From: Bacteroidota bacterium
GTDB lineage: Bacteria; Bacteroidota; Ignavibacteria; UBA10030; UBA6906
DNA length: 64,000 nt
Assembly (NCBI GenBank): GCA_017860635.1
Contig: JAGDMK010000001.1
Coordinates: forward strand, 15,727 to 79,726
Reading direction: 5' to 3'
Position 1 is the stretch's first letter. Every line of letters starts with the position of its first letter. A model generated the notes under the pieces. That model saw only the letters and a list, made by a program, of their open reading frames with translations. It ran no database searches and was not told where the DNA came from. Shown piece by piece: positions 1,836-33,151 of this stretch. A program made the position numbers and the translations under genes.

Positions 1836-2085
1836 GGACATACAAGGCCAGCGATTGTATCCAAGGTTGTCAGCGAAGCCGGAAGAGATTCCGGCTTTGT
1901 CATTTTCTCAGCCGATAGTGTTCCGGCGAATCGAAGGCCGATGGTCGACAAATTGTAGACCGGAAGTTGAGTTGGTCTACAAAAAGCGTTGTGCACAAAC
2001 ATTCGAAATCGAGAATCGCGTAGTATTCACAAGGCCTTCTGGGTAGTCAAATCTTGACGCTGAATCGCCAGTACCATTCGAATCG
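1836..2085. repeat. Downstream element (DE) copy 1: conserved hairpin-rich 3' element found after several T9SS cargo genes
   Basis: Near-identical sequence recurs at 7970-8155, 15613-15890, 22803-23010 and 32780-33075. It contains a perfect inverted repeat 'aagccggaagagattccggctt' and 'ggtctacaa..ttgtagacc'. Confidence 0.7.
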
Positions 2086-2224
2086 GTCTCAGTCCTTGAC
2101 TTCCCATCCTCAGGAGATCCTGGCTGCATGATAGGATTTTCCTGGCTCCATAGATTCTGCTCCTCGCACCTGGGACCGTGTCTTAAACTTGCCCCTCCTG
2201 TTGTGCCTCCTGTTGTGCCCATCC

Positions 2225-2372
2225 TGTTGTTGACATTGCCTGAAAGCCGGAGTATATTTGCTTACTTTTGGCATGATGGCTTCCCCAGCCATCGAGCCGC
2301 CGCTCTGGACCCTGTAACGGTTCCTCCGTAGTAGAGCCTTCCCCGACGACCCCCTGGCTGTAAGCCTCGATG
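2225..2372 (+). promoter_or_regulatory. Promoter element (PE) copy 1: TTGACA(2230-2235)-N17-TATATT(2253-2258) followed by a conserved hairpin RNA/leader (GATGGCT..AGCCATC)
   Basis: Consensus sigma70-like -35/-10 boxes with a 17-nt spacer. The block recurs at 15962-16112, 23120-23265 and 25770-25980, with a fragment at 20052-20100. Confidence 0.55.
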
Positions 2373-3962
2373 CATCTGTTCGTCCATTCCGCCATTGGCC
2401 GAGATGGAATCCCGTCACGAAGGCAATCGGCAAATTATGCAGTGATCCGCCACGGTAACAAGAATACGTCAATAGTCGTCTTTCTCCTCCTGCTCGTTTC
2501 GGGAGTATTGACGGGTGTGTCATACCTCTCCATGCAATCCTCTCTTGCCTGGTTCTGTCTCATACCCTTGTTCTATGTCCTTCAGAAACAAGACGCCAGA
2601 GGATCATGTCTTTGTTGTACGGCATACGGAATTGTCACATCTGCCGTTCTCTGCTACTGGGTCATTCCTGTCGCGACAAGATACTCGGGTGTCTTGACAT
2701 TCTACTCGATGCTCCTGTACGGTGGTGTTGTCCTGTACTTCTCGCTGTATTCCGCTCTCTTCGGAGTGGGATACTATGTCCTGCGCACTCGCTCGGCGAA
2801 CACGATCCTCTGTGGTACCTCTGTTGCAGCTTTCTATGTGCTCCTTGAAGTGTTTCGGATGAAACTCCTCCCTGGTTCACCATGGTGTCATTATCCTCTT
2901 GCATGCTCCCAGGCCCGAAACTCGATCATCATTCAATGGGCCGCCATTGGCGGACCTTCTCTCATTACGTTTGGCATAGTGTTCGCAAACTACGCCGCGT
3001 CGCAATTCCTGCTGAAAAGAGAAGTGAAGTCACTCACGATGGCTGCGGTCTGTGTTCTCGTATTTGCCGGGGGAGGTGTCGTTTTGAAAAGTGCTGGCCA
3101 TGAGATCATCGATGACAGGTTGGAGGCGGTTCTCCTCAACGACAACATTGCCGCCGAAGCACGGTGGAATGATCAAACCGGTGACTCCCTGGCTGCTTTG
3201 TTGTTCAGATTGAACGAAGAGGCAGCACGCTACGATCCGGATCTTTTTGTGTGGTCGGAGACAGCTATTCCCTGGAAATTCGAGCCGGACGATGAATTCG
3301 TTCCCAAGGCATTGAGCATTACGCGTCGCTCAAAGGCGAATCACCTGATGGGTATGTGGTCACCCTCAGTCCGGAACAGTCAACTCGTATACAACTCGGC
3401 ATACCTCATCAGGAGTGACGGGAGAATTGCGGACAGATATGACAAGACAATCCTCCTCGATTTCCTTGAGAGGCCATTCAAGGGGGGCGCACTATCGGTT
3501 CTCCCTTTCTTCAACACGAGCAGATACAACAACGTGATTCCCGGCAGATCGCAAAACCTGATCATTTCCGGGAAGGCACGTATTGGTATGCTGATATGCA
3601 ATGAAAGCCTGTCCGAGGAGATGTATGTGCACTACGACAAAGCGAATGCGAATCTCCTCGTCGTGATGAGCAATGATGCCTGGTTTGAGGATACTCCCCT
3701 GCAGATGCATCATTTCTACTTTACGCGGATTGGGGCTGTGATGATCGGAAAGGATGTCATCGTCAACAGCAACAGGGGAATCGTAGGCGTGATTCGAGGC
3801 AATGGTGACATGGAATCCGTTCCGCAATCCGATACGCCGAGAGTAGTGCATTGCGTGGCCCGCCTATCCTCGAAGACGACGCTCTACTCCACGGTCAGTG
3901 GTTTCACTATCCCCCTCTATGCATTGCTGGCAGGTCTGTCAATCGTCATAAGGAGGAAATGA
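2370..3962 (+). CDS. lnt: Apolipoprotein N-acyltransferase
   Basis: N-terminal polytopic membrane region plus C-terminal CN-hydrolase domain. Catalytic-triad contexts match Lnt: 'VWSETAIP' (Glu), 'YDKTILLDF' (Lys), 'LICNESL' (Cys). The exact start is uncertain. Confidence 0.6.
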   Translation: MHLFVHSAIGRDGIPSRRQSANYAVIRHGNKNTSIVVFLLLLVSGVLTGVSYLSMQSSLAWFCLIPLFYVLQKQDARGSCLCCTAYGIVTSAVLCYWVIPVATRYSGVLTFYSMLLYGGVVLYFSLYSALFGVGYYVLRTRSANTILCGTSVAAFYVLLEVFRMKLLPGSPWCHYPLACSQARNSIIIQWAAIGGPSLITFGIVFANYAASQFLLKREVKSLTMAAVCVLVFAGGGVVLKSAGHEIIDDRLEAVLLNDNIAAEARWNDQTGDSLAALLFRLNEEAARYDPDLFVWSETAIPWKFEPDDEFVPKALSITRRSKANHLMGMWSPSVRNSQLVYNSAYLIRSDGRIADRYDKTILLDFLERPFKGGALSVLPFFNTSRYNNVIPGRSQNLIISGKARIGMLICNESLSEEMYVHYDKANANLLVVMSNDAWFEDTPLQMHHFYFTRIGAVMIGKDVIVNSNRGIVGVIRGNGDMESVPQSDTPRVVHCVARLSSKTTLYSTVSGFTIPLYALLAGLSIVIRRK

Positions 3963-5794: not shown

Positions 5795-7939
5795 ATGAAA
5801 ACGCGTTTCCGCTGCCTCGCAATCGTCCCTGTTCTGCTGTGTCCCTCTGCTTCTGCCCAATGGATACAGACGAACGGACCCTACGGCGGAGATGTGCTGT
5901 GCTTTGCCGCAAGCGGCCCATATGTCTTTGCCGGCACTTCGCGGGGTGGTGTCTTCCTCTCCAGCAATGGCGGCACAAGCTGGACATCGGCGGGTGCAGG
6001 GTTGACGCACTACTCTGTCAATGCGCTTGCTGCGAGCGGTGAATATCTTTTTGCCGGGACCGGTGGTGGTGGCGTGTTTCGTTCGACCAATGGAGGCACA
6101 AGTTGGACTGCCGTGAGTTCCGGCTTGACGTGCCGTGATGTCCGATATCTTGCCGTCAGCGGCACCAATCTCTTTGCCGGGACATGGGGCGACGGTATCT
6201 TACGTTCAACTGACAACGGCACAAGCTGGACCGTCGCAGATTCGGCAGGGGAATGCATATCATCTTTGGCAATCAGCGGCACGAACATCTTTGCGGGTGA
6301 ACCCGGCGTCGGGGGTGGGTGAGGAAATGCCTGGACCCTGGGTGGGGTCCGCCTCTCTACTGATAACGGCACAACCTGGGTCAAAGTCGACAACACGCTG
6401 GGCTGCCGGGATGTGCGTGTTCTGGCTTTGAGTCCTCCTTCCGGCGGAGAGAATGTCCCGAACCTCTTTGCCGGGACTTCCAACGGCGTGTTTCGCTCGA
6501 CCGACTGCGGTGCATGGTGGTCGGGCTCGAGTGTTGGCTTGAGTAGCACTGACATCAGGTCTCTTGCCGTCAGCGGCACAAATCTCTTTGCCGGGACGTG
6601 GGGTGGCGGTGTCTATGTATCGTCCAACAGTGGCGCAAACTGGACACGCATCGATTCTGGCTTGACAAACCGTCGAGTCAGATCGGTTGCCGTCTTCGGC
6701 ACCACTCTCTTTGCGGGAACTGATAGCGGCATCTTCCTCTCTGTGAACAGCGGTACAAGTTGGACTGCCGCCAATTCCGGCTTGACGAGCACGTATGTGC
6801 GATCTCTGGTCGTCAATGGCACAAGTCTCTTTGCCGGGACCGAAGGTGAGGGTGTTTTTCGTTCGACCGACAGTGGCACAAACTGGATCACCGCGAGTTC
6901 CGGTCTGACAAACCCTGATGTCAGATCTCTTGCCTTCGACGACACAATCCTCTTCGCCGGGACTGGCGGCGCCGGCGTCTTTCTCTTGAGAGATGGCGGT
7001 ACAAGCTGGAAGGCGGCGAATGCCGACATGAAAGGCGCTAACGTCTATTCGCTTGCCGTCGGCGGCACAAGTCTCTTTGCGGGGACCGAAGGGGCCTTTT
7101 TCCGTTCCACCGACAATGGCACGACCTGGACCAGGGTAGACTTGCCGAGTGATTGTGTCTGTGCTCTCGCCGTCATCCCCTCCGGCAGCGGGACAGGCGT
7201 TACAGAGGTCTATGCCGGAACCTGGGGGGACGGCGTATTTCGTTCGACCGACAGTGGCAGGAGCTGGACGTCGGCGAGTACCGGTCTGACGAGCACCACT
7301 ATCTTGTCTCTTGCCGTCAATCCCGCCGGTGACGGGACTGGCGCCACAGACCTCTATGCTGGAACCTGGGGGGGCGGCGTATTTCGCTCGCCCCAGAGCG
7401 GCACAAACTGGATGGCAGCAAGTACCGGCCTGACGTGCCCCTCGGTCCACGCGTTTACCGCCTCCGGAAAGAATCTCTTTGCGGGAACGACCAACGGGGT
7501 TTTTCTCTCGACAGATCGCGGCACGTCCTGGACGAATACCAGCTTAACAGACGTATCTGTCCATGGTCTGGCGTGTTCCGGTACGAATCTTTTTGCTGGA
7601 ACTCTTGGGTCCGGTGTGTGGCGGCGTCCGCTCTCGGAGTTGGTTACCCACGTTGAGATGCCACCACTCCGCCCGACTTCATTTGCACTACACCAGAACT
7701 ACCCGAACCCGCTCAACCCGAGCACGACCATCAAGTATGAGTTACCCAAATCATCGGAGGTCAGATTGAGCGTGTTCGATATGCTCGGACAGGAGGTATC
7801 TGTCTTGGTGAATGAGAGGAGGGAGGCAGGAGTTCACGAGGTCAAGTTTGACGGTTCAAATCTTGCGAGCGGAGTGTATTTCTACCGACTACAGGCAGGT
7901 GATTTCGTTGAATCGAAGAAACTCGTGCTTTTGAAATAG
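5795..7939 (+). CDS. BNR/Asp-box ~45-aa-repeat beta-propeller cargo protein with T9SS CTD, interrupted by an in-frame TGA at 6320-6322 (candidate recoded or split gene)
   Basis: ORFs 5795-6322 and 6413-7939 are in the same frame and separated only by TGA, with no other stop in between. The upstream part has the signal peptide 'MKTRFRCLAIVPVLLCPSASAQW'. The downstream part has ~12 'NLFAGT.GGGVFRSTDNGTSWT' repeats and the CTD but no signal peptide of its own. Confidence 0.6.
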
Positions 7940-7969: not shown

Positions 7970-8155
7970 GGCCACAGACATACAAGGCCAGCGATTGTAT
8001 CCAAGGTTGTCAGCGAAGCCGCAAGAGATTCCGGCTTTGTCATTTTCTCAACCGATAGTGTTCCGGCGAATTGAAAGCCGATGGTCGCCAAATTGTAGAC
8101 CGGAAGTTGAGTTGGTCTACAAAAAGCGTCGTGCAGAAACATTAGAATTTGGGAA
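7970..8155. repeat. DE copy 2 (truncated)
   Basis: About 90% identical to 1836-2020, including the 'gccggaagagattccggc' and 'ggtcgccaaattgtagacc' hairpins. Confidence 0.7.
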
Positions 8156-8280: not shown

Positions 8281-8512
8281 TGCTGTGAAAAAGGCACAAT
8301 TGATAGTTTCTTCCGCATAATTGGTGGCAAAACCGCCTCCGGAGGCATTATCTTTCCGGCATCGACTAATTGATGACCCACACACGCTCCGGACTCGATG
8401 AGGGAGTCGGTGCGCCGCCGAGTGTTTCTGCTTTATCGTCGTACCGACGACCCACCGACTACCATCTCAAATAAGTAATCTCCGACAGCGTTTGCGTTGA
8501 AAGGAGGCCAAG
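8281..8512 (+). promoter_or_regulatory. Conserved upstream leader (UL) of BNR/beta-helix cargo paralogs ('ggcacaattgatagttt..gcataattggtggc....gagtcggtgcgccgccgagtgtttc....gcgttgaaaggagg')
   Basis: Homologous blocks lie at 10753-10995 and 16262-16481. 3' halves lie at 13306-13430, 17748-17883, 20100-20186 and 5760-5794. Each ends in the RBS 'aaaggagg' immediately before the ATG. Confidence 0.5.
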
Positions 8513-10729
8513 ATGACGACTCAATTCATCTGTCTTGCACTCGTCATTGTTCTGCTTTGCCCCTGTGTGCCAGCCCAATGGGTCCAAACGACCGGTCCTG
8601 GTGGTGGTAATATCGGCGCCATTGCCGTCAGTGGCACGAATGTGTTTGTGGGGACAGGCTTCCCCTTTTTTGGTGTTCACAATGCCGGTGGTGTCTTTCG
8701 CACAACGGACGATGGAGCAAGCTGGACCGCGGCCAACTCTGGTCTAACGGACATGTGCATCGGTTCTCTTACGGTCAGTCCCGCCTCCGACGGGGCAGGT
8801 GGGGTGAATCTCTTCGCAGGGACTCTCTGCGGTGGAGTCTTACGCTCCACCGACAACGGGACAAGCTGGACTGCTACAAGTTTGACGAGTGCGTTTGTCA
8901 CCTCTTTTGCCGTCAGTGGCACAAATCTCTTTGCGGGGTCCCCCGGACCTACGTGATATGGTGGTGAGACCCCAGGTGGGGTCTATCGTTCAACGGACAA
9001 TGGTAGCACCTGGACTGCGGCTAGCTCAGGTCTATCGAACTCGGTTGTCCGTTCTCTTGCCATCAGCGGGACGAATCTCTTCGCGGGGACTGACGGCGGT
9101 GTGTTTCTTTCTACCAACAACGGGATGAGTTGGAGTTCGGCCAATAGCGGTCTGCCCCTCCCGGACCAGTTCGGCAATGTTGCTAGTGTCATGTGTTTTG
9201 CGGTCAGCGGCGCGAATCTCTTTGCGGGCACTGGTGGTGGCGGGGTCTTTCTTTCCACGAACAATGGGACAAGCTGGACAGAAGCCGGCTTGACAAATAG
9301 TCGAGTTGGTGCTCTTGCTGTCTCCGGCACGAATCTCTTCGCGGTGACAGGCAGGTTTCTTGACAGTGGAGTCGTCTTTCGTACCACGGACAATGGTACA
9401 AACTGGACTGCGGCTAGTTCAGGCCTGCCGAACATGTGGGTCCGGTGTCTTGCTGTCAAAGGGACGAATCTCTTTGCATGCGGTGACGGCGGTGTGTTTC
9501 TATCCAGTGACAGCGGCACAAGCTGGAGTTCGGTCAACGCTCGTCTACCGAACACGGAGGTCTCGTCTCTTGCTGCCGCTGGGACAAATCTCTATGCGGG
9601 GACACGCCATTTCGCCGGTTACACTCTAGCCGTCTTTCTTTCAACCGATTTCGGGACAGACTGGGTCGTGTACAACGAGGGTCTGACAGACACGAGGGTC
9701 AGGGTTCTTGTTGCCAGTGGGATGTATCTTCTTGCTCAGAATGATAGCGGCGGTGTCTTTCTTTCCAGGGATAGCGGCAAAAGCTGGACCACGGCTAGCT
9801 CAGGTCTGACGAACACGTATGTCAGCTGTCTTGCTGTCAGCACATCCTCCGACGGGACAGGTGGTACGAATCTCTTTGTGGGGACTGGGTACGACGGTGT
9901 ATTTGTTTCCACCAATAACGGTACAAACTGGAATGCGGTCAACTCTGGTCTAGCCAACACTCGTGTATTGTCTCTTGCAGTCAGCGGGACAAATCTCATT
10001 GCAGGCACGGAAGGCGGCGTGTTTCTTTCCACGAACAGGGGAACAAGCTGGAGTCCTGTCAAATCAGGTCCAATAGGTACGTATGTGAATTCCCTTGTTG
10101 TTGGCGGGGCGTATATCTTTGCGGGGACTTACAATGCTGGTGTCTTTCTTTCCACTAATAGTGGGGTAAACTGGACTGCGGTCAATAGTGGCCTCCCAAA
10201 AGACCAGAACGGCATTCTGCCCCATGTCATGTGCTTTGCTGTCAGCGGCGCTAATCTCTTTGCGGGAACTGACGGCGGTGTCTTTTGTACAACCAACGAC
10301 GGCGTAAGCTGGACTGCCGTCAATACCGGTCTGACAAACACTTCTGTCGAGGCACTCGCCGTATCGGGCGCGTATCTCTTTGCAGGCACTGATGGGGCAG
10401 GTGTGTGGTGCCGCCACTTGTCGGAAATGATTACCTCGGTTGAGCCCGTGGTGACCGAATTACCGCACGAGTTCTTTGTCCAACAGAACTACCCCAATCC
10501 CTTCAATCCGAGCACGACCATCACGTACGCGCTACCTAAGTCTTCAGAAGTCAAATTGAGTGTCTTTGACATGCTGGGTCGTGAGGTCTCTGTCTTGGTA
10601 GGCGAGAGCAAAGATGCGGGGGTCCACCAGGTCAAGTTTGACGGTTCGAATCTTGCGAGCGGAGTGTATTTCTACAGATTAAAGGCGGGAGTTTTCGTAG
10701 CGACGAAACGACTGCTTTTACTAAGATGA
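8513..10729 (+). CDS. BNR/Asp-box repeat beta-propeller cargo protein with T9SS CTD, interrupted by an in-frame TGA at 8954-8956
   Basis: ORFs 8513-8956 and 9101-10729 are in the same frame with no other stops between them. Signal peptide 'MTTQFICLALVIVLLCPCVPAQW'. Many 'NLFAGT..GVFLSTNNGTSW' repeats. CTD 'NYPNPFNPSTTITYALP'. Confidence 0.6.
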
Positions 10730-10752: not shown

Positions 10753-10995
10753 CAGCAGTTTTCTGCTGTGAAAAAGGCACAATTGATAGTTTCTTACGCA
10801 TAATTGGTGGCAGAACCTCCCTCGGGGGCATTATCTTGTCACCATCGAACAATACATGCCCCACACACGCTCTGACTTGACACAAGAGTCGACGCGCCGC
10901 CAAGTGTTTCTACAATATCGTCTCACCCGACGGCCTACCGAGTCCTGCCTCAAGTCAGTACTCTCCTATAGCAGTCGCGTTAAAAGGAGGACAAG
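10753..10995 (+). promoter_or_regulatory. UL copy upstream of the beta-helix cargo gene
   Basis: About 80% identical to 8281-8512 and ends in 'gcgttaaaaggaggacaagATG'. Confidence 0.5.
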
Positions 10996-15566: not shown

Positions 15567-15612
15567 GCGCGATATCAGATATAGTCCAGCAGTAGTCTTA
15601 TCATACGCGCTC

Positions 15613-15890
15613 GTTGAAGCCGGAAGAGATTCCGGCTTCTTCATTACTCAGCCGACAGTGTTCAGAGCAATCGAAAATCGATGGTCTACAATCTGTAGAC
15701 CAAAGAGCGAGTTGGTCTACAAAAAGCAAGGTGCACAAACATTCGAAATCGGGAATCGGGTAGTGTTCACAAGAGTTTCCCGTCGTTCGACTCTTGACGC
15801 TGAATCGCCAGTACCATTCGAATCATTTAGAATCCTCCCTGCCTGCCGGCAAGCAGGGATTTTCAGTATTGCATCCTCAATCAGCCCCCC
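15613..15890. repeat. DE copy 3, including a terminator-like hairpin 'ccctgcctgccggcaagcaggg' followed by 'attttc'
   Basis: Homologous to the other DE copies. Lies directly downstream of the M1 peptidase stop codon. Confidence 0.7.
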
Positions 15891-15961
15891 CCAGCCAGGG
15901 TTTTCTCTTCCATGCAGAACCCACTTGCCGCCTGAACCTGGCCCTGATACGCTTTCCCCAT

Positions 15962-16112
15962 CCCGTCGTTGAAATTGCCTCTGAGCTGGGGTATATTTGG
16001 CAGTTGTGCTCACGATGGCTCCTTCAGCCATCGAGCCGCCGCTGTTTGACCCTGTAGTAGTTCTACCGCTCTAGAGCCTTCCCCGACGACCCCTGGCTGC
16101 GAGCTTCAAAAT
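15962..16112 (+). promoter_or_regulatory. PE copy 3: TTGAAA(15969-15974)-N17-TATATT(15992-15997) followed by the conserved hairpin RNA
   Basis: Same architecture as 2225-2372. The 'GATGGCTcc..AGCCATC' stem is conserved. Confidence 0.5.
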
Positions 16113-16171: not shown

Positions 16172-16190
16172 CCCCCCCCCGGGGGGGGGG
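16172..16190. repeat. Homopolymeric palindrome C9G10
   Basis: 'gccccccccc gggggggggg' is a perfect self-complementary homopolymer tract in intergenic DNA. Confidence 0.9.
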
Positions 16191-16261: not shown

Positions 16262-16481
16262 GGGCACAATTGATAGTTTATCACGCAGGAGTGGTGGAAA
16301 AGCATCCCCCAAAGGCGTTATCATAGAATCGTCGGCGAAGGCGCTCCCGAAGCGCGTTCTGACTTCATGGAGGAGTGAATGTGGCGTCTCATTTCTCGTG
16401 GCGCTGTCCTTTCCGACGATAGATCGAGTCCAACTTCTAGTCAATGATTTTCTCCTTCATCTGCGTTCAAAGGAGGAAGAA
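16262..16481 (+). promoter_or_regulatory. UL copy (divergent) upstream of BNR cargo gene 16482
   Basis: 'gggcacaattgatagttt' then 'gcgttcaaaggaggaagaaATG'. Confidence 0.45.
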
Positions 16482-17883: not shown

Positions 17884-20046
17884 ATGAGGAGCCAATTCAT
17901 GGGCATAGCGCTCGCCGTGGTTCTCGTTTGCGCCTGTGCGCCCGCTCAATGGATACGAACCAACGGACCTTATGGTGGCTACGTCCACGCATTTGCTGCC
18001 AATGACACCAATCTTTTTGCGGCCACTTATGGCAGCGGTGTCTTTCTCTCCACTAACCATGGCAACAGCTGGACGCCGGCCAGCACAGGTTTGACGAACA
18101 GGGGCGTGAATACGCTTGCATTCAGCGGCACGAATCTCTTCGCCGGGACTGAGGGCGATGATGTCTTTCTCTCAACGAACAACGGTGAAAGCTGGACTGC
18201 CGTCAGCACTGGCTTGACGAATCAGTATATCTATGCCCTTGCTGTCTCCGGCACGAATCTCTTTGCCGGAGGTGGCGGCGTATTTCTTTCAACAAACAAT
18301 GGCACAAGCTGGAGTGCGGTCACAACGGGGTTGCCGACGGGATATGATGTCAGAGCTCTCGCCGTTTCCGGGACGAACCTTTTTGCAGGGACTTCTGGCA
18401 ACGGCGTCTTTCTCTCCACCGACAATGGCACCAACTGGACGCCGGCAAATGCGGGCTTGGAGCGCGCTAGTGTCTATGCTCTCGCCATCTCGGGGACGAA
18501 TCTCTTTGCTGGGACTTGGGGTAGTGGGGTCTTTCTTTCGACTGACAACGGCACAAGCTGGTCTTCGGCGAGTACAGGTCTGGTGAGTACATGTATTGTT
18601 GCCCTGGCCATTAGCGGGACCAACCTGTATGCGGGGGCAAGCCCCTCGTGAGGTAGTGCCCCGGCCTCAGGTGGGGTCAATGTTTCGACAGATAACGGAG
18701 CAAGCTGGAGAGCAGTCAATACCGGCTTGACGAATATGTATGTCTTAGCTCTTGGTGTCTTTGGGACGGATCTCATTGCCGGGACTGATGGCGATGGAGT
18801 CTTTCTCTCCACGAACAACGGTGAAATCTGGACAGCTGTCAACACAGGAATAACCAACACAGGTATCAACGTCATCGCTAGGAGCGATACAAATCTCTTC
18901 GCAGGGGCTCATGAGATGGGTATCTTTCTCTCCACAAACAATGGTGATAGCTGGACATCGGTCAGTGCAGGATTGGCGAACATGACTGTTAATGCTCTTG
19001 CATTTAGCGGCACAAGCGTTTTTGCGGGGACAGCGGGTGGAGTCTTTCTCTCCACGAACAACGGTTCAAGCTGGACGGCCGTCAGCGCATGGAGCGGGGA
19101 TGTCTGTGCCTTGTCTGTCAGCAACATGAATCTCTTTGCGGGGACTCATGGTGGCGTCTTTCGCTTCACCAACAATGACAGTAGGTGGACCGCAGTCGAC
19201 ACGCGTTTGACGAACGGGCCTGTCTTCGCGCTTGCTTCCAGCGACGGGTATCTTTTTGCGGGCACTGATCTTGGCGTATTTCGCTCCACGAACGATGGCA
19301 GTAGCTGGACAGCGGTCAACGCGGGTCTACCCGATAGGATGAATGTCCGTGATTTAGCTTTCAGCGGCACCAACCTTTTTGCGGGAACAGCTGAGTACGG
19401 TGTCTTTCTGTCTACAGACAATGGTGATAGTTGGACAGCCGTGAACACAGGCTTAGTCAACACGTGCGTGCAAGCGCTTGCAGTCGCCGGCACAAACCTC
19501 TTCGCGGGGACTGCTTTCCACGGTGTCTTTCTGTCTACAAACAATGGTAACAGTTGGACAGCCGTGAACTCAGGCTTAGCCAACACGGACGTGAAAGCGC
19601 TTGCTGTCAGCGGCGCCAACCTCTTCGCGGGAACAGCTGGAATATATATGCTTTCAGGTCGTTTTGGTGGTGGCGTGTGCAGACGACCTCTCTCAGAGAT
19701 GATTACTTCCATCGGAACCATCACAAACGGTCTCCCCGAAGAGTTCTTGCTCCATCAGAACTACCCAAACCCCTTCAACCCGAGCACCACCATCAAATAC
19801 GAGTTGCCTGCATCGTCTGATGTCAAACTGAGTGTGTACGATGTGCTTGGTCGTGAGGTGTCAGTATTAGTGAATGAGAGAAGGGATGCGGGAGTTCACG
19901 AAGTGAAGTTTGACGGTTCTGGTCTTGCGAGCGGATTGTATTTCTACCGATTACAGGTCCGCCCTCTGGACTCCGCCATCGAGCGAGACTCCAAGAGCGG
20001 AGCTGGCGATTTCGTAGCGACGAAACGACTCCTGTTATTGAAGTAA
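17884..20046 (+). CDS. BNR/Asp-box repeat beta-propeller cargo protein with T9SS CTD (CTD variant with an 18-aa insertion), interrupted by an in-frame TGA at 18649-18651
   Basis: ORFs 17884-18651 and 18727-20046 are in the same frame with no other stops. Signal peptide 'MRSQFMGIALAVVLVCACAPAQW'. CTD 'YRLQVRPLDSAIERDSKSGAGDFVATKRLLLLK'. Confidence 0.6.
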
Positions 20047-20186
20047 GCGGGATGTCAGATGCAGTTTTGGCATGATGGCTTTCCCAGCCATCGAGCCGCC
20101 GAGTGTTCTCTTGCTACACGACGATCCATCGAGTCCTGTTTCAAGTCACTTATTTCCGACAGCGATCGCGTCCTAAGGAGGACAAG

Positions 20187-22754: not shown

Positions 22755-22802
22755 TCATAATCGCTGCAATACGCCACATACGATTCTGTCAGAAGCCATT
22801 GC

Positions 22803-23010
22803 CGAAGCCGGGAGAAACTCCGGTTTCGCTGTCTTCTGTGGCGACTGTGTCCGAGTGACTCGACCCCGATGGTCTACAAAGTGTAGGCAAATTCGCGAGT
22901 TGGTCTACAAAAAGCAGTGTGCACAAAAATTCGAAATCGGGAATCGCATAGTATTCACAAGGCTTTCCTGGTAGTCGAATTAAGGAGGTGAATCGCCAGT
23001 ACTATTCGAA
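22803..23010. repeat. DE copy 4
   Basis: Contains 'gccgggagaaactccggtt' and 'ggtctacaaagtgtagg', then 'gttggtctacaaaaagcagtgtgcacaaaaattcgaaatcgggaatcgc..'. Confidence 0.65.
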
Positions 23011-23119
23011 TCATCGCTACTCCTCGATTTTCCATTTTCAGTCAACCCTGGTTACCAGCCAGGTTCCATCTCCGTTCCTGCACACCCCACTCGTCCCATG
23101 AAGCTAGTCAATGCTATCC

Positions 23120-23265
23120 TGTCGTTGACATTGGCCATGGGCCGGAGTATATTTGCATGTTGAACACACGATGGCCTCGTCAGCCATCGAGCCGCCGCTA
23201 TTTGACCCTGTAGTAGTTCCCGGCAAAGAGCCTTTCCCGACGAGCCCTGGCTTGTAGCCGATTGA
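23120..23265 (+). promoter_or_regulatory. PE copy 4: TTGACA(23125-23130)-N17-TATATT(23148-23153) plus conserved hairpin RNA
   Basis: Same architecture as the other PE copies. Confidence 0.5.
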
Positions 23266-23446
23266 TTCTCCAGCCGTTCATTGACGTTTGTGCGCTCTGA
23301 GTCGAAGTAGTAGTCAGTGAGCGACCTGGGGAAAGGTCACCTTTGTCTTCCGTGTCTCCGATCCGTCGATGCACCGGATCAAGGGTATGGGTGCATGGGT
23401 GAATGTGCTCATGTCTCCCAATTCCTTGTCCCAGGAGGGGATAACC

Positions 23447-25183: not shown

Positions 25184-25345
25184 TCTGTGACTCGAAGCAA
25201 GAGTCAATGAGCCGCCGAGTGTAAATGCACTGCCTTCCCGCCCGATTACGTCGGGCGGAATGGCACTACGGATAGGGGTGAGAATTCTCTAGCGCTGTGA
25301 CAACTCGCCAGCCGCCTGAACCACGACAAGAGGATAGCTCAAAAC

Positions 25346-25642
25346 CTACCACGAACGCCGGCCACCCTGTTGCTTCCCTCCGTGACCCGGTTTGCGCTCT
25401 ACCCGTGGACGAGCTTCTGTCACGTCCATAGACTGACCCTTAAGAGGCTTCCGGTGTAGTCCGGCGATTGCCGCTTCTGCCTGGGCTTTGTCAGGCATTT
25501 CAACGAACGCGAATCCCTTGGAGCCCCCACCGAACTTATCCTTGACCACCTCCACCGATGACAGTGTGCCAAAAGGTTCGAAGGCGGCCCGCAATTCTGC
25601 ATCCGTAACATCGCGCGAGAGGTTTCCGACGAAAAGTTTCAT
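25346..25642 (-). CDS. RRM-domain RNA-binding protein (Rbp-like)
   Basis: RNP-2 'KLFVGNL' and RNP-1 'KGFAFVEM', with a Gly/Arg-rich tail. Confidence 0.85.
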   Translation of the reverse strand: MKLFVGNLSRDVTDAELRAAFEPFGTLSSVEVVKDKFGGGSKGFAFVEMPDKAQAEAAIAGLHRKPLKGQSMDVTEARPRVERKPGHGGKQQGGRRSW

Positions 25643-25769
25643 AATGTTCTTCCGTTTGTTCACATGCTTAAGAGACAATACCAATATACGGCTTTCGGAG
25701 ATAGCGTCCTAATGTCCCGCCGCGGCTTCAAGTCCGTCTCCTGCTACAGGAGAAGCGAAAGAGTCGCCA

Positions 25770-25980
25770 TCCCGTCGTTGACATTGCTCGCTAGCCGGAG
25801 TATATTTGCTCAGTTATGTGCACGATGGCTCCACCAGCCATCGAGTCCGTCATCCTGACATCCTGGGATGACGAGACCTCGTCCCGCCTCCGACGGGACG
25901 GGCCGCCGCTGTTTGACCCTGCAATGGTTCTTTCGCTTTAGAGCCTACCCCGACGACCCCCTGGCTGCAAGCCTCAGAGT
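25770..25980 (+). promoter_or_regulatory. PE copy 5: TTGACA(25778-25783)-N17-TATATT(25801-25806) plus conserved hairpin RNA carrying a ~57-nt insertion
   Basis: Same architecture as the other PE copies. Lies immediately upstream of the sensor kinase gene. Confidence 0.5.
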
Positions 25981-26088: not shown

Positions 26089-29000
26089 ATGTTGTTTCCT
26101 TCGTTGAGAAGCTGCTGGAAACTCAAGGTCCTCCAACCTGTGTGTGTCCTTTTGTTCAGTCTGCAGTGCATTGTATTCTCAGCCCCACGAGAGACAATTC
26201 GATTTCAGCATTTCGGTGTCGAGCAGGGACTCCCGAACAGCGCCGTGAACTGGATTCTGCTGGACGGTCACGGGTATCTCTGGGTTGCCACAGTCGACGG
26301 TCTTGGCCGCTATGACGGATACCGGTTCCAGGTTTATCGAAATAACTCCGAAGACGAAGCGAGCTTGAGCTCCAACGACGTGAGAACTCTTTTTGAGGAT
26401 CGATCCGGGAATTTGTGGGTCGGGACAAATGGGGGGTTAAACAGATTCGACTGGAAAACGGAGAAGTTCAGGCGATACCTTTACAGTGCTCATGACGACA
26501 ACAGCATCAGTTCCGATTCCATCACGACAATAGGTGAGGATGGCAAGGGTGAGTTGTGGATTGGAACGAAGGCTGCTGGCCTGAACACGTTCAACGCACA
26601 TAAGAACAATTTCACGCGGGTGGTGCTTGATACGAGTGCGCGGACGGTGGGAAAAAAGACCTTGTGCGACAACAGAGTACGCGCCATCATTCGGGATCAC
26701 AAAGGGGTTCTCTGGATTGGAACACGAGGTGGGTGGTTGCACAGGCTTGATCCCGTCACGAACGAATTCGATTGCTATCGAAGTGCTCGTACTCATACGG
26801 ACGTTCTCGATCCCGATGGAGTGAGGGCTCTCTGTGAAGACCATTCCGGGAATATTTGGCTTGGGACGTTCGAAGCTGGTATTAAGAAGTTCGATCCGAT
26901 GACGAGGAAGTTCGAGACATTCATCCACAGGTCAGGGGATCCTACAAGCCTGAGCAACAACGCCGTTAATCAGCTGCTTGTTGATCGAACGGGCGATCTG
27001 TGGATCGCGACATTTAACGGAGGCCTCGATAGACGACGCTGGCCGGAAAGGAAGTTCAAGCATTATGTGAACAACCCTAAGGACCCCGTAACCCTGAGCA
27101 GTGATAACGTCACTTCTCTTTGTGAAGATCAATCCGGGACGGTGTGGGTCGGGACTGCAGTTGGCCTTGACAAATATGTTGCAGGAATGAATATCTTTCG
27201 ACACTTCTCTCACGACCCTGACGATCCGAAGAGCCTGAGCAACAATTTCGTTGCATCGATCAAGGAGGATCGCTCGGGGAATCTGTGGGTCGCTACGTTT
27301 GGTGGGGGACTCAACCAATTCGATCCAGCAACCGGAGTGTTCGAACATTTCTTGCATAGTCCCAGAGACGCGGGTAGCATCTGCAGCAATTACGTCACCG
27401 GTCTCTGTGTGAGTCGCTCGGGCTCGTTGTGGATCGGCACGATGGGAGGAGGTCTTGACAAGCTTGCTCCTGGAAGCCGGAAATTTCAACACTATCCGAA
27501 AACCAGAAGTGACACACGCATCCGCACAATCTATGAGGATGGATCAGGCCTGTTGTGGTACGGCACATACAGTGCGGGACTGAAGAAATTCAATCCCCGA
27601 ACGAATCAGCTTACACATTTCTTTCAGGACCCGAATAATCCTCATAGCGTGACCAGTAATGTGGTTTGGGAGTTCGAAGTGGATACTGCCCGTAAGAACG
27701 AAGGGCTCCTATGGATTGCAGCCAATCATGGATTCACGAGATGTGACATGAAGCGTGAGAAATTCCAACAGTTCTTTCCGGACACTCAATACACGAGTCG
27801 AAGCAATAACATCATGCAGACTCACCAGGATCACTCTGGCACGCTCTGGCTTGCAACTCTGGGCGGTCTCTGGGGCTTTGAACCGAAAACCGGGGCCTTC
27901 GAGCACTTTACCAGCAAGGACGGTCTGGCGAATGACCTTGTTTGGAATTTGGAAGAGGATGACCATGGACGGTTGTGGATCGCGACCGGCAGCGGTCTTT
28001 CCCGATTTGATCCTCGCACGAAACAGTTTAGGAATTACGATGCCGGGGACGGGTTGCAGGGAATCCGCTTCAATTATGGCTGCCACAGCAAACTCAGAAG
28101 TGGCGAACTGTGCTTCGGAAGCACCGATGGTTTCACCATGTTCCACCCTGATAGCGTAAAGGAGAACACGCACGTTCCCCCAATTGTCATTGCAGGTTTC
28201 AGGAAGTTCAACAAACCGGTCGACATTCGGGAGGCCGTTGGTCAGTCCGGCGCGGTCGAGCTTTCATACAAAGAAAACATGTTCTCCTTTGAGTTTGCTG
28301 CATTGGACTTTGTTCGCCCCGAAGAGAATCAGTACGCCTACAAGCTCGAGGGGTTTGACAAGGATTGGGTGTACTGCGGCACGCGCCGATCGGCAACGTA
28401 TACAAACCTCGATGGCGGAGAATATGTCTTTCGAGTTAAGGGAGCGAACAATGATGGTGTTTGGAACGAAGAAGGGGCTTCCATGGCTGTCATTATCACG
28501 CCCCCGTTCTGGGCAACATGGTGGTTCCGGATACCGGCAATGATCGCTCTGCTTGGCATTGTCGGCAAAACAGTCCGGTACGTTGAAAAGAGAAAGCTGA
28601 TGAGAAGAATCGAACAGTTGGAACTGGAGCAAGCCCTGGTGAACGAACGTGCCCGCATTTCACAAGACATGCACGATGAGATTGGGTCCAGTTTGTCAGA
28701 GATTGCCATACTGGGTGAGTTGGCGAGAAAGAAGCCAGAGGAAGCGGAAAGGTACATTCAGCAGATCTCCGAACGCGCAGCGGAGGTGATTGACAGTGTC
28801 AGCGAGATCGTCTGGGCGATGAATCCGAGCTACGACACACTTGACAGTCTCGTCGCTCGCATGCGAAGGGATGCGGTCAAATATTTGGGCTTTGCGAACA
28901 TTTCCTGCAGGTTCGCTGCTCCTGACGTTGTTCCTAGCCTCCCCCTCCGCGCTGAACTGCGCAGGAATCTTTTCCTTGTCGTCAAGGAAGCTCTTCACAA

Positions 29001-29277
29001 TATCGTCAAACACTCTGCGGCCACGGAAGTCTCGATCTCTGTCAGGTGCATGAAAGGCGACCTGGAAATTCTTGTCTCAGACAATGGAAAAGGGTTTGTC
29101 CTCACTGACCGACTCGGGACAGGAAATGGCTTGAGCAGCATGCACAAGCGGATCGCTGATATGGGCGGGACTCTCAGGATAGATTCCACACCCGGTCGTG
29201 GGACACTGGTTGCAGTTCAAGCGACATTGGCAACCCATAGACCAACCGATTTACCTAATTCTAAGTATTGGATCTGA
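26089..29277 (+). CDS. Sensor histidine kinase with periplasmic two-component-regulator-propeller (Reg_prop) repeats, Y_Y_Y domain, TM, HisKA_3 and HATPase_c
   Basis: Reg_prop-like 'G.LW.GT..GL..fd' repeats (more than 10). 'YAYKLEGFDKDW' Y_Y_Y motif. TM 'FWATWWFRIPAMIALLGIV'. H-box 'HDEIGSSLSEI'. 'SDNGKGF' G-box. Confidence 0.8.
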   Translation: MLFPSLRSCWKLKVLQPVCVLLFSLQCIVFSAPRETIRFQHFGVEQGLPNSAVNWILLDGHGYLWVATVDGLGRYDGYRFQVYRNNSEDEASLSSNDVRTLFEDRSGNLWVGTNGGLNRFDWKTEKFRRYLYSAHDDNSISSDSITTIGEDGKGELWIGTKAAGLNTFNAHKNNFTRVVLDTSARTVGKKTLCDNRVRAIIRDHKGVLWIGTRGGWLHRLDPVTNEFDCYRSARTHTDVLDPDGVRALCEDHSGNIWLGTFEAGIKKFDPMTRKFETFIHRSGDPTSLSNNAVNQLLVDRTGDLWIATFNGGLDRRRWPERKFKHYVNNPKDPVTLSSDNVTSLCEDQSGTVWVGTAVGLDKYVAGMNIFRHFSHDPDDPKSLSNNFVASIKEDRSGNLWVATFGGGLNQFDPATGVFEHFLHSPRDAGSICSNYVTGLCVSRSGSLWIGTMGGGLDKLAPGSRKFQHYPKTRSDTRIRTIYEDGSGLLWYGTYSAGLKKFNPRTNQLTHFFQDPNNPHSVTSNVVWEFEVDTARKNEGLLWIAANHGFTRCDMKREKFQQFFPDTQYTSRSNNIMQTHQDHSGTLWLATLGGLWGFEPKTGAFEHFTSKDGLANDLVWNLEEDDHGRLWIATGSGLSRFDPRTKQFRNYDAGDGLQGIRFNYGCHSKLRSGELCFGSTDGFTMFHPDSVKENTHVPPIVIAGFRKFNKPVDIREAVGQSGAVELSYKENMFSFEFAALDFVRPEENQYAYKLEGFDKDWVYCGTRRSATYTNLDGGEYVFRVKGANNDGVWNEEGASMAVIITPPFWATWWFRIPAMIALLGIVGKTVRYVEKRKLMRRIEQLELEQALVNERARISQDMHDEIGSSLSEIAILGELARKKPEEAERYIQQISERAAEVIDSVSEIVWAMNPSYDTLDSLVARMRRDAVKYLGFANISCRFAAPDVVPSLPLRAELRRNLFLVVKEALHNIVKHSAATEVSISVRCMKGDLEILVSDNGKGFVLTDRLGTGNGLSSMHKRIADMGGTLRIDSTPGRGTLVAVQATLATHRPTDLPNSKYWI

Positions 29278-29302
29278 AAGCGTGTGTACGTATTCTCAAT
29301 CC

Positions 29303-32728: not shown

Positions 32729-32779
32729 AAGTCGCCGCGATACATGCGACTCCTGCAATTCGATCACAGGTGTTTCCGG

Positions 32780-33075
32780 AGCCGGAAGTAGTTCCGGCTT
32801 CGCTATTTATGTGACCAGTGCTGTTCGAGAACCTCGAAAACCGATGGTCTGCAATTCGTAGACCAATACTCGGCTTGGTCCAAGAAAAGTCTCGTGCTCA
32901 AACATTCGAGTTCGGGAATCGCTCAATGTCCACAAGGGCTTCCTCACTTTCGAATCTTGAGGCTGAATCGCCACTACTGTTCAATTCAGCAGGAATCCTC
33001 CCTACCTGACGGCAGGCAGGGATTTTCCGTATTCCATCTTCATTCAGCCCTGACCCCAGACGGGGTTCTTTCTTC
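32780..33075. repeat. DE copy 5 with terminal terminator-like hairpins ('ccctacctgacggcaggcaggg' followed by 'attttcc', and 'accccagacggggtt' followed by 'ctttcttcttc')
   Basis: Homologous to DE copies 1-4. Confidence 0.65.
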
Positions 33076-33122: not shown

Positions 33123-33151
33123 TTGACATTGTAACAGAATGGCATTACTAT
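33123..33151 (+). promoter_or_regulatory. Sigma70-like promoter TTGACA-N17-TACTAT upstream of the DoxX gene
   Basis: 'cgcTTGACAttgtaacagaatggcatTACTATtgc', about 70 nt upstream of the ATG at 33224. Confidence 0.45.

What the first reader, a model, noticed from the sequence alone, without database searches (positions are those of the whole stretch)
2225..2372. Dispersed promoter-bearing element: consensus TTGACA-N17-TATATT followed by a conserved ~130-nt hairpin RNA (5 copies)
Copies lie at 2225-2372, 15962-16112, 23120-23265 and 25770-25980, with a fragment at 20052-20100. All keep -35/-10 boxes with exactly 17-nt spacing. They are followed by 'GATGGCT-loop-AGCCATC', where the loop sequence varies (ccttc, tcccc, ctcgtc, ccacc) while the stem is kept. 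That is covariation typical of a structured RNA. The block then continues with 'gagccgccgct.tttgaccctgtagtagttc..agagcc(t/a)(t/a)ccccgacgaccccctggctg.aagcct'. The copies precede unrelated genes (lnt, a BNR cargo gene, an SBBP cargo gene, a sensor kinase). This could be a small RNA gene family, a shared regulatory leader or riboswitch-like element, or a MITE that carries an outward promoter. A short conserved ORF (MA[SP][SP]AIEPPLFDP..) overlaps it, but the loop codons are not conserved, so an RNA element is more likely.
Basis: seen in the sequence. Interest (0 to 1): 0.6.

Follow-up and report, generated by a model that had tools for sequence, protein, structure and literature searches.

The report
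Shared promoter-leader of secreted-protein genes
A roughly 150-base promoter-plus-leader sequence sits in front of many unrelated genes for exported proteins in uncultured Ignavibacteria-like bacteria; it is real and conserved across many metagenomes, but nothing shows it is a folded riboswitch-like RNA or a jumping element, and what reads it is unknown.

Summary
Four full copies (2219-2372, 15958-16112, 23114-23265, 25767-25980) and one variant (20069-20136) exist; chance expects none.

Each full copy is a strong sigma-70-type promoter (TTGACA-17-TATATT) followed 16-19 nt later by a hairpin, then a C-rich block: GAGCCGCCG...GACCCTG...AGAGCC...CCCGACGACCCC..TGGCTG.

About 50 further distinct copies occur in Ignavibacteriota/Bacteroidota MAGs and soil, fen and sediment metagenomes. 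All of them point towards the next gene. Most of those genes (40 of 51) encode signal-peptide proteins of unrelated families.

DNA upstream of -35 is unalignable, while the leader keeps about 70-80% column identity. This is a conserved promoter plus 5' leader.

It is not a MITE: no terminal inverted repeats or target-site duplications, one orientation only, and window copies only 73-84% alike. It is not a separate sRNA, because no terminator follows it. It is not a peptide gene, because the frame is not kept.

The claimed covariation is absent: every tested helix scores the same as shuffled controls. Rfam has no match.

The leader is modular. A second unit (module B) and an upstream conserved block (D16) extend the repeat well beyond the reported coordinates.

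The mechanism is inferred only: a stabilising 5' hairpin plus a sequence-specific site for an unknown trans factor.

The parts
2230..2258 (+). Copy 1 promoter, TTGACA-17-TATATT
   Evidence: Scores 11 of 12, among the best in the window. Sequence read.
2270..2298 (+). Copy 1 hairpin H1, GGCATGATGGCT-tcccc-AGCCATCGAGCC
   Evidence: Inverted repeat with 12-nt arms, 83% complementary. Predicted in the MFE fold.
2262..2372 (+). Copy 1 leader module A, from about the predicted transcription start to CTCGATG. Lies upstream of lnt (ORF 2370-3962).
   Evidence: Alignments. An identical copy occurs in metagenome contig L022. Pfam finds LNT_N and CN_hydrolase.
15969..15997 (+). Copy 2 promoter, TTGAAA-17-TATATT
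   Evidence: Scores 10 of 12.
16004..16112 (+). Copy 2 leader module A. H1 is at 16011-16035.
16361..16431 (+). Degenerate module B inside the roughly 480-nt leader of copy 2. The gene starts at 16482 after AAAGGAGGAA.
   Evidence: Alignment with the region upstream of 8513. Coordinates.
23125..23153 (+). Copy 3 promoter, TTGACA-17-TATATT
   Evidence: Scores 11 of 12.
23160..23265 (+). Copy 3 leader module A. H1 is at 23167-23191.
23292..23323 (+). Module-B-type hairpin region downstream of copy 3 (GCGCTCTGAGTCGAAGTAGTAGTCAGTGAGCG). The SBBP/T9SS gene starts at 23447.
25778..25806 (+). Copy 4 promoter, TTGACA-17-TATATT
   Evidence: Scores 11 of 12.
25821..25980 (+). Copy 4 leader module A, with H1 at 25821-25845 and a 57-nt two-hairpin insert at 25846-25902. 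It precedes a sensor kinase (start 26089) and a LuxR-type response regulator.
20069..20136 (+). Copy 5. H1 is followed by a module-B-type tail (GAGCCGCCGAGTGTT...CGACGA). No recognisable promoter. It starts 23 nt after the stop of the previous gene, and the Kelch/T9SS gene starts at 20187 after AAGGAGGAC.
8391..8459 (+). Module B without module A (GGACTCGATGAGGGAGTCGGTGCGCCGCCGAGTGTT...CCGACGACCCACCGAC), upstream of the BNR gene that starts at 8513.
25189..25223 (+). Module-B-like fragment (GACTCGAAGCAAGAGTCAATGAGCCGCCGAGTGTA) just after the stop of the SBBP gene.
1862..2159 (+). Associated upstream block D16, copy 1. It lies between terminator T1 (1873-1900) and the copy 1 promoter. Function unknown.
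15603..15898 (+). D16, copy 2
22791..23084 (+). D16, copy 3
32767..33054 (+). D16, copy 4. It is followed by a promoter (33123-33151, TTGACA-17-TACTAT) but no leader A.

Best explanation
The element is a conserved cassette made of a strong sigma-70-type promoter and the first 110-350 nt of the transcript it drives, that is, a 5' untranslated leader. A lineage of uncultured Ignavibacteria-like bacteria (GTDB Bacteroidota) uses it in front of many non-homologous genes for exported, lipoprotein, outer-membrane and T9SS-cargo proteins.

The leader is built from one or two units. Each unit is a 5'-proximal hairpin, then GAGCCGCCG, then 18-45 variable bases, then CCCGACGACCC.

Proposed action, in cis on the mRNA:
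1. The 10-12-bp hairpin begins only about 5-10 nt from the predicted 5' end. It shields the transcript from 5'-end-dependent decay.
2. The C-rich, largely unpaired, sequence-conserved tract is a docking site for one trans-acting reader, either an RNA-binding protein or a G-rich small RNA.

Shown: the repeat, the promoter geometry, the orientation, the cross-genome footprint, the bias towards signal-peptide genes, and the absence of coding or transposon features.

For: - The repeat is far beyond chance.
- The copies' promoters are the best-scoring in the window.
- Homologues occur in 10 loci from Ignavibacteriota/Bacteroidota MAGs and in dozens of metagenome contigs. In all, 52-57 distinct copies were found.
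- 45 of 55 copies have a promoter scoring at least 8 of 12. Of those, 38 have a 17-nt spacer, and the -10 ends 16-19 nt before GATGGCT in most.
- Column identity is about 0.3 upstream of -35, 0.5 in the promoter, 0.68-0.82 in leader blocks not fixed by the search pattern, and 0.45 further downstream.
- Every copy lies upstream of, and points towards, an ORF. That ORF usually has a GGAGG ribosome-binding site 23-360 nt away.
- 40 of 51 downstream proteins look like signal-peptide proteins, against 25 of 64 other ORFs in the same loci. Fisher's exact test gives p = 2.7e-5.
- The downstream families are unrelated: Lnt, BNR, Kelch and SBBP T9SS cargo, a sensor kinase, alpha/beta hydrolases, DUF4440 lipoproteins, TonB_C, peptidase M28 and OmpA.
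- H1 is predicted in nearly all copies. One-sided changes in its 5' arm are mostly wobble-compatible on the sense strand (C-to-U opposite G, A-to-G opposite U). A hitch-hiking copy in L058 keeps pairing through two G.U pairs.
- The same bipartite motif recurs in module B. Module B can follow module A or sit directly after a promoter.
Against: - There are no expression data. The transcription start is only predicted.
- No covariation supports any helix. Observed values equal the shuffles, and no two-sided changes were found.
- The H1 3' arm was fixed by both collection-search patterns. It could therefore not vary in most sequences, so H1 is untested rather than confirmed.
- Mean folding z-score is only -0.9.
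- Strong primary-sequence conservation without structure could also reflect a DNA-level site.
- The signal-peptide count uses a crude heuristic, and many downstream genes are paralogues (the MRTQSICLAL...WVQTNGPYGG family). The copies are therefore not independent.
- No candidate reader was identified. An RRM protein gene lies next to copy 4, but this pairing is not seen in other loci.
Confidence: 0.55

Rival explanations
1. A riboswitch-like or attenuator RNA that switches between two folds. One fold has two local hairpins: H1 (AUGGCU/AGCCAU) and H3 (GGCU-gyr-AGCC). The other is a long-range fold in which CAGCCA pairs with the downstream UGGCUG, and GAGCCGCCG lies opposite CGACGACCCC.
For: In copy 1 the segments are 12 of 17 complementary. 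The CAGCCA:UGGCUG pairing is possible in 93% of cells across 51 sequences. There are several GGCU and AGCC segments that could exchange partners. The element sits in a 5' UTR.
Against: There is no covariation at all and no Rfam match. No terminator or SD-sequestering expression platform is shared by the copies, and the distance to the start codon ranges from 23 to 360 nt. The regulated genes share no metabolic theme that would suggest a ligand. GCCGCCG against CGACGAC needs two C.A mismatches.
Confidence: 0.12
2. A DNA-level operator. The H1 palindrome (CGATGGCT-N5-AGCCATCG), centred about 25-30 bp downstream of the start site, would be bound by a dimeric transcription factor. One candidate is the LuxR-type response regulator encoded after copy 4. 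The rest of the block would hold further protein sites.
For: A perfect 8-bp inverted repeat with a variable 5-bp spacer is what a dimer operator looks like. Conserved arms, a variable centre and no compensatory change all fit DNA recognition. Copy 4 precedes a kinase and response-regulator pair, as expected for autoregulation.
Against: It does not explain about 100 nt of strand-asymmetric, C-rich conservation downstream. Arm changes are biased towards those that keep G.U pairing on the sense strand. The spacer is constrained to pyrimidines on one strand. The same motif pair recurs far from the promoter in module B.
Confidence: 0.12
3. A mobile or recombinationally copied promoter (a MITE-like element or a 'putative mobile promoter') whose similarity reflects spread rather than leader function. 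Only the promoter would matter.
For: The same promoter-bearing block precedes non-homologous genes, which is the operational definition of a putative mobile promoter (PMC3575422). The window shows that whole intergenic units were duplicated together: terminator, D16, terminator, promoter, leader. The modules are mosaic.
Against: There are no terminal inverted repeats or target-site duplications. All copies share one orientation. Window copies are only 73-84% identical to one another. Sequence subtypes are shared between genomes rather than being genome-specific. The transcribed part is better conserved than the promoter spacer, and the DNA upstream of -35 is unalignable.
Confidence: 0.1
4. A translated upstream leader peptide (MA[SP][SP]AIEPPL...) that regulates the downstream gene, for example through Pro-Pro stalling.
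For: An ATG, GTG or TTG occupies the same position in 50 of 52 copies, and CTG never does. The N-terminal MAxxAIEPP is shared.
Against: There is no ribosome-binding site, and the start codon lies inside the H1 stem. The peptides end after 13 to more than 60 residues, with different C-termini. The distance between the conserved blocks is 41, 42 or 43 nt, giving 22/15/15 modulo 3, yet the nucleotide blocks stay conserved across frames. AIEPP is encoded by bases that the search pattern fixed.
Confidence: 0.06
5. An independent small RNA gene of about 130-150 nt.
For: It has its own strong promoter and a conserved sequence.
Against: No intrinsic terminator follows the block in the window or in homologues. 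Conservation often continues through module B to the ribosome-binding site. The block always sits directly upstream of a co-oriented gene.
Confidence: 0.04

Closest known systems
Putative mobile promoters (PMPs; Matus-Garcia, Nijveen and van Passel 2012; summary read as PMC3575422)
   Same: These are highly similar non-coding sequences upstream of non-homologous genes within a genome. Some are shared between taxa, and most have no Rfam match and no known function. The authors note that such conservation may reflect post-transcriptional roles.
   Different: PMPs were defined at 80% identity or more over at least 50 nt, in the -150 to -50 region. Here the conserved part is mainly the transcribed leader, the copies are older (73-84% identity), the leader is modular, and it is tied to one functional class, exported proteins.
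5'-terminal stabilising stem-loops of abundant envelope or secreted-protein mRNAs (E. coli ompA 5' UTR, B. subtilis aprE leader). From my own knowledge, not tested here.
   Same: A stable hairpin within a few nucleotides of the 5' end of a long leader, in front of a gene for an exported protein.
   Different: Those are single-gene leaders without a dispersed, sequence-conserved family. Here the primary sequence beyond the hairpin is conserved across dozens of genes and genomes.
Correia, ERIC and other MITEs that carry outward promoters
   Same: A dispersed short repeat that supplies a promoter to neighbouring genes.
   Different: MITEs have terminal inverted repeats and target-site duplications, insert in both orientations and have sharp ends. 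None of these features is seen here.
lnt RNA motif (Rfam; Chlorobi, upstream of lnt). Recalled from memory, then tested with Rfam.
   Same: Copy 1 lies directly upstream of an lnt gene in a relative of Chlorobi.
   Different: No Rfam family, including Lnt, matches the region even at E of 10 or less. The element here precedes many other genes.
JUMPStart/ops leader elements that recruit NusG paralogues (RfaH, UpxY, LoaP). From my own knowledge.
   Same: A short conserved sequence in the 5' leader of several unrelated operons for surface or secreted products. It is read for its sequence, not as a covarying fold.
   Different: ops is 8-12 nt and serves long operons with internal terminators. Here the block is over 100 nt and mostly precedes single genes. 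No NusG paralogue was linked to it.

Membership tests
Rfam-described RNA family (any, including the lnt motif, Chlorobi-1 and Chlorobi-RRM) | Match to the family covariance model | tested here: not met
   The whole window gives no match at gathering thresholds. Copy 1, copy 2 with D16, and L008 give only noise at E of 10 or less, for example eukaryotic lncRNA and snoRNA models well below gathering scores.
Structured cis-regulatory RNA or riboswitch | Conserved secondary structure supported by compensatory base changes | tested here: not met
   For H1+P2+H3 and for Alt+P3, all five measures equal the shuffled controls. An all-against-all column scan finds only C/U opposite invariant G. Caveat: the H1 3' arm was fixed by the search patterns.
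Structured cis-regulatory RNA or riboswitch | Location in a 5' UTR with an expression platform (terminator or SD-sequestering helix) | tested here: inconclusive
   The 5' UTR location is met. No shared terminator or anti-SD element was found. The distance to the start codon ranges from 23 to 360 nt.
MITE or Correia-like element with an outward promoter | Terminal inverted repeats | tested here: not met
   The only inverted repeats are internal: H1 and the CAGCCA/TGGCTG pair. None lies at the ends.
MITE or Correia-like element with an outward promoter | Target-site duplications and sharp ends | tested here: not met
   The flanks of the four window copies share no short direct duplication. The 3' end of similarity is ragged and differs between copies.
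MITE or Correia-like element with an outward promoter | Insertion in either orientation relative to genes, with near-identical copies | tested here: not met
   All copies for which a downstream ORF could be examined point towards it. Window copies are 73-84% identical.
Putative mobile promoter (PMP) in the sense of Matus-Garcia et al. 2012 | At least 80% identity over at least 50 nt upstream of genes whose coding regions are not homologous | tested here: met
   Copies c1/c4 and c2/c4 are 82-84% identical over about 157 columns, and shorter cores score higher. The downstream genes are Lnt, BNR, SBBP and a sensor kinase. The definition was read. The exact -150 to -50 window of that study was not applied.
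Leader-peptide uORF (attenuation or arrest peptide) | Conserved reading frame, start signal and stop | tested here: not met
   A start-like codon is present in 50 of 52 copies, but the frame is not kept (spacing modulo 3 is 22/15/15). Peptide length and C-terminus vary, and there is no ribosome-binding site.
Independent sRNA gene | Own promoter and own terminator | tested here: not met
   A promoter is present. No intrinsic terminator follows module A.
5'-terminal mRNA-stabilising stem-loop | Hairpin within a few nucleotides of the mapped 5' end; longer half-life when present | not testable with these tools
   Geometry is compatible. The -10 ends 16-19 nt before GATGGCT, and the extended stem starts about 5 nt earlier. 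No start-site or half-life data exist.

The most novel reading that the evidence does not exclude
The leader marks mRNAs of the exported proteome (T9SS cargo, lipoproteins, outer-membrane proteins, Lnt, an envelope sensor kinase) for one dedicated post-transcriptional reader. Its bipartite C-rich motif (GAGCCGCCG ... CCCGACGACCC) follows a 5' hairpin and is used once or twice in tandem. This would give Ignavibacteria a secretome-wide RNA regulon with no described counterpart.
Probability: 0.22. Interest if true: 0.7.

Novelty: new member of a known kind. Interest (0 to 1): 0.45.

Why it matters
If the leader is functional, it defines a ready-made regulon of exported and T9SS-secreted proteins in a widespread but uncultured soil, fen and sediment lineage. 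It would also supply a strong native promoter-leader cassette. It would be a case in which a long 5' UTR is conserved for its sequence rather than for a covarying fold, which points to an unknown RNA- or DNA-binding reader. It also shows that part of the 'dark' conserved intergenic DNA in these genomes is modular: D16, promoter, and modules A, B and C.

Tried and rejected
- **Rfam.** Searched at gathering and at E of 10 or less on the window, on three sub-regions and on one foreign locus. Nothing was found.
- **RNAalifold.** Run on 4 and on 52 copies. Only the H1 core was predicted, with no covariation term.
- **Column-pair scan and explicit structure tests.** No signal above shuffles.
- **Coding hypothesis.** Rejected on frame and stop-codon statistics.
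- **MITE hypothesis.** Rejected on absent terminal inverted repeats and target-site duplications, single orientation, and divergence between copies.
- **Internal sigma-54 or second sigma-70 promoter at the conserved TTGACA/TTGGCAC before module B.** Spacing and the -10 or -12 elements do not fit. This was judged by eye on the sequences.
- **Pairing between D16 (either strand) and the leader.** RNAduplex z-scores ranged from -1.4 to +1.3, so no signal. The duplexes were unconstrained and not meaningful. The first attempt timed out.
- **RRM protein as a recurrent neighbour.** It is found only in the window.
- **Looking up the window's genome through an encoded protein.** One call failed on a wrong frame. 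The corrected protein is not on record.
- **Other failed calls.** A batch fold failed on a length limit. One D16 script crashed part-way.
- **Literature.** Full-text search for Ignavibacteria with structured RNA motifs found nothing relevant.

Full report
**1. Observation**

The five sites are present as described and align over about 150 nt.
- Core patterns recur four times each, where dinucleotide shuffles expect none.
- The copies at 2230, 23125 and 25778 carry TTGACA-17-TATATT. The copy at 15969 carries TTGAAA-17-TATATT.
- These four are the top sigma-70-like matches in the first 40 kb.
- The copy at 25.8 kb has a 57-nt insert (25846-25902) right after AGCCATCGAG. The insert folds into two hairpins.
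- The 20-kb copy has no recognisable promoter. It starts 23 nt after the previous stop codon and continues with a different tail (GAGCCGCCGAGTGTT...CGACGA).

**2. Context in the window**

The first 40 kb is a same-strand array of genes for T9SS cargo proteins. These carry the Por_Secre_tail domain with BNR/Sortilin, Kelch, SBBP, beta-helix or M1 peptidase domains.
- The copies precede lnt, a BNR cargo gene (true start about 16482), a Kelch cargo gene (20187) and an SBBP cargo gene (23447).
- The fourth full copy precedes a Reg_prop/Y_Y_Y histidine kinase (26089), which is followed by a LuxR-type response regulator.
- Strong GGAGG ribosome-binding sites mark the real starts.

**3. Relatives elsewhere**
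- An exact-pattern scan of species-representative genomes found 10 loci. All are in MAGs labelled Ignavibacteriota, Ignavibacteriae or Bacteroidota.
- A second pattern scan of metagenomes returned 119 stretches. About half are true homologues and the rest are chance matches inside genes.
- An nhmmer profile found 63 hits above 50 bits, giving 52-57 distinct sequences.
- Contig L022 carries copy 1 identically. It extends about 6 kb beyond the window start and holds two more copies.
- Caveat: both patterns fixed AGCCATCGAGCCGCC. The genome pattern also fixed GATGGC, and the metagenome pattern fixed CGACGA. Conservation of those bases is therefore by ascertainment.

**4. What is conserved**
- DNA upstream of -35 is unalignable, with column identity about 0.3.
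- The promoter region scores about 0.5.
- Leader blocks not fixed by the patterns score 0.68-0.82. These are CTCTGGACCCTG, AGAGCC, the flanks of CGACGA, and CCCCTGGCTG.
- Sequence further downstream scores about 0.45.
- 45 of 55 copies have a promoter scoring at least 8 of 12. Of those, 38 have a 17-nt spacer.
- The -10 box ends 16-19 nt before GATGGCT in most copies.
- The transcript should therefore begin only about 10 nt before the hairpin. Counting the outer GC(A/U)C...GAGC pairs that extend H1 to 10-12 bp, the distance is about 5 nt.

**5. Orientation and downstream genes**
- Every copy with enough flanking sequence lies upstream of, and points towards, an ORF.
- By a crude N-terminal test, 40 of 51 of these proteins have a signal peptide or lipobox. 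Several of the misses are obvious mis-calls.
- The same test gives 25 of 64 for other ORFs in the same loci (Fisher p = 2.7e-5).
- Many belong to one paralogous family (MRTQSICLAL...WVQTNGPYGG). Others are alpha/beta hydrolases, DUF4440 lipoproteins, a TonB_C protein, an M28 peptidase, an OmpA-family protein, Lnt and a sensor kinase.
- The copies are not independent, so the p-value is indicative only.

**6. Not protein-coding**
- Translating from the ATG gives MA(S/P)(S/P)AIEPPL... followed by unrelated tails of 13 to more than 60 residues.
- The distance between GAGCCGCC and CGACGA is 42, 41 or 43 nt in 19, 15 and 11 copies. Modulo 3 this splits 22/15/15, yet the nucleotide blocks on both sides stay conserved.
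- No frame is open in all copies.
- One oddity remains. The start-like codon is ATG, GTG or TTG in 50 of 52 copies and never CTG.

**7. No evidence of a covarying fold**
- RNAalifold predicts only the H1 core.
- A scan of all column pairs finds only C/U variation opposite invariant G.
- Two explicit models were tested: H1+P2+H3, and the long-range CAGCCA:UGGCUG pairing plus a closing GCUCUG/YAGAGC helix. Their paired fractions, double changes and covariation scores equal the shuffled controls.
- Folding energy is only modestly below shuffles (mean z = -0.9).
The loop itself is constrained to pyrimidines.
- Weak support for an RNA-level hairpin, not a DNA palindrome, comes from the kind of one-sided change seen in the 5' arm. 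These are C-to-U opposite G (16 cells at two positions, plus 2 at a third) and A-to-G opposite U (7 cells). Transitions that would break pairing are rare.
- A hitch-hiking copy in L058 keeps the stem through two G.U pairs.
- These cells probably represent only a few independent events.

**8. Not a MITE and not a stand-alone sRNA**
- No terminal inverted repeats were found, only internal ones.
- The flanks show no duplications, and the 3' ends are ragged.
- Only one orientation is seen.
- Window copies are 73-84% identical to each other.
- Sequence subtypes are shared across genomes: CTCTGGACCCTGTTCCAG..., CTGTTTGACCCTGTAGTAG... and CTCTGGACCCTTGTTTG....
- No terminator follows module A.

**9. 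The element is modular and larger than reported**
- Many leaders continue with module B...TTGACA..AATGGCTCGATGTAGGAGTCAGC-GAGCCGCCGAGTGTT-(5-20 nt)-CCTACCCGACGACCCACCGAGTCC.... They then run to GCGTTGAAAGGAGGACAAGATG.
- Module B also occurs alone directly after a promoter (L022 about 6900, L110 about 2650).
- In the window, module B appears at 8391-8459 upstream of gene 8513. It appears in degenerate form in the leaders of copy 2 (16361-16431) and copy 3 (23292-23323). It forms the tail of copy 5.
- The basic unit is therefore a 5' hairpin, then GAGCCGCCG, then a variable stretch, then CCCGACGACCC, used once or twice.
- The two motifs are not complementary. GCCGCCG against CGACGAC gives two C.A mismatches.
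- The bases that follow the two motifs repeat directly: CUGG in module A and GAGU in module B. This observation was made by eye on the sequences.

**10. Upstream neighbour (D16)**
- In the window, three of the four promoter-bearing copies are preceded by the same layout. The layout runs: stop codon of a T9SS gene, intrinsic terminator T1, a conserved block of about 220-300 nt (D16), a second plus-strand terminator T2, about 70 unconserved bases, and then the promoter.
- D16 also occurs at 32767-33054 before a different promoter without leader A, and partly at 8002-8155.
- D16 is conserved upstream of leader promoters in several other loci.
- It contains a GGTCTACA-n3-TGTAGACC palindrome plus a third GGTCTAC copy, so alternative hairpins are possible. 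It also contains a C/U-rich stretch with CCUC motifs before T2. The T2 stem changes in a compensated way between copies.
- It has no Rfam match. Its strand and promoter were not resolved.
- No meaningful complementarity to the leader was found.

**11. Mechanism**
- Best supported is a promoter plus 5' UTR cassette under purifying selection that acts on the mRNA of exported-protein genes.
- I infer two parts: a 5'-proximal protective hairpin, and a sequence-specific, mostly single-stranded C-rich docking site for an unidentified reader.
- This fits the geometry, the strand asymmetry, the lack of covariation with strong sequence conservation, and the reuse of the same motif pair in module B.
- The main rivals cannot be excluded without experiments. 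They are a conformational RNA switch, a DNA operator for a regulator such as the adjacent LuxR-type protein, and plain promoter propagation.

**12. Comparison with known systems and novelty**
- Operationally the element meets the definition of a 'putative mobile promoter' family (PMC3575422).
- It resembles 5' stabiliser leaders of ompA and aprE, and sequence-read leader elements such as ops/JUMPStart. That comparison rests on my own knowledge.
- It is not a member of any Rfam family, including the lnt motif that its position before lnt brings to mind.
- It is a new family of a known general kind.
- Its link to the secretome and its modular build are the interesting parts. Its function is unproven.

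Noticed in passing
window 1862-2159, 15603-15898, 22791-23084, 32767-33054, partial 8002-8155; also L019:1031-1273, L004:4053-4295, L017:1959-2240, L110:2382-2622, L022:6996-7280/9591-9852/4418-4638: A second conserved intergenic block (D16, about 220-300 nt) lies between a terminator after the upstream T9SS gene and a second plus-strand terminator just before the leader promoter. It contains a GGTCTACA-n3-TGTAGACC palindrome plus a third GGTCTAC copy, so alternative hairpins are possible. It also contains TGTGCACA, repeated TCGAA/GAATCG motifs, and a C/U-rich stretch with CCUC motifs. It has no Rfam match. It may be a small RNA gene or a regulatory region; strand and promoter are unresolved.
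   Followed up: partly
window 8293-8350, 10776-10792, about 16262-16330: A third short shared leader block (module C: GGCACAATTGATAGTTT...GGTGG.AAA...GGCRTTATC) occurs upstream of three BNR or beta-helix T9SS genes.
   Followed up: partly
window 16172-16190: A run of nine C directly followed by ten G lies inside the leader of copy 2. It could be a perfect loop-less hairpin or an assembly artefact.
   Followed up: no
window 25346-25654 (minus strand): A gene for a small RRM_1 RNA-binding protein is transcribed divergently from the copy 4 promoter. It is a possible reader of the pyrimidine-rich leader, but it is not found next to leaders in the other loci held.
   Followed up: partly
window 26089-29929: Copy 4 drives a two-component pair: a Reg_prop/Y_Y_Y/HisKA_3 sensor kinase and a LuxR (GerE)-type response regulator. 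If this pair controls the promoter family, it would be autoregulated.
   Followed up: no
window 25846-25902: The 57-nt insert in copy 4 forms two hairpins. Seventeen of its bases (GTCCCGCCTCCGACGGG) recur inside a BNR gene at 8778-8794, with a shorter match at 9846.
   Followed up: partly
window 5795-7939, 8513-10729, 17884-20046: Several BNR-repeat T9SS genes appear as two adjacent ORFs in different frames. These could be frameshifts, pseudogenes or sequencing errors in highly repetitive 123-nt coding repeats.
   Followed up: no
window 37390-39054: Three tandem copies of about 680 nt (71-85% identity to the reference copy) lie inside a DUF4397 T9SS cargo gene (36922-39381).
   Followed up: no
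L005:711-900 and L007:7270-7469 (both from contig CAWDEM010000008.1): Two copies of the leader with identical upstream sequence but different downstream sequence occur in one MAG. One is fused directly to the middle of a DUF4440-like gene, which suggests a recent duplication or deletion. L058:1361-1396 shows a similar leader-to-mid-gene fusion.
   Followed up: no
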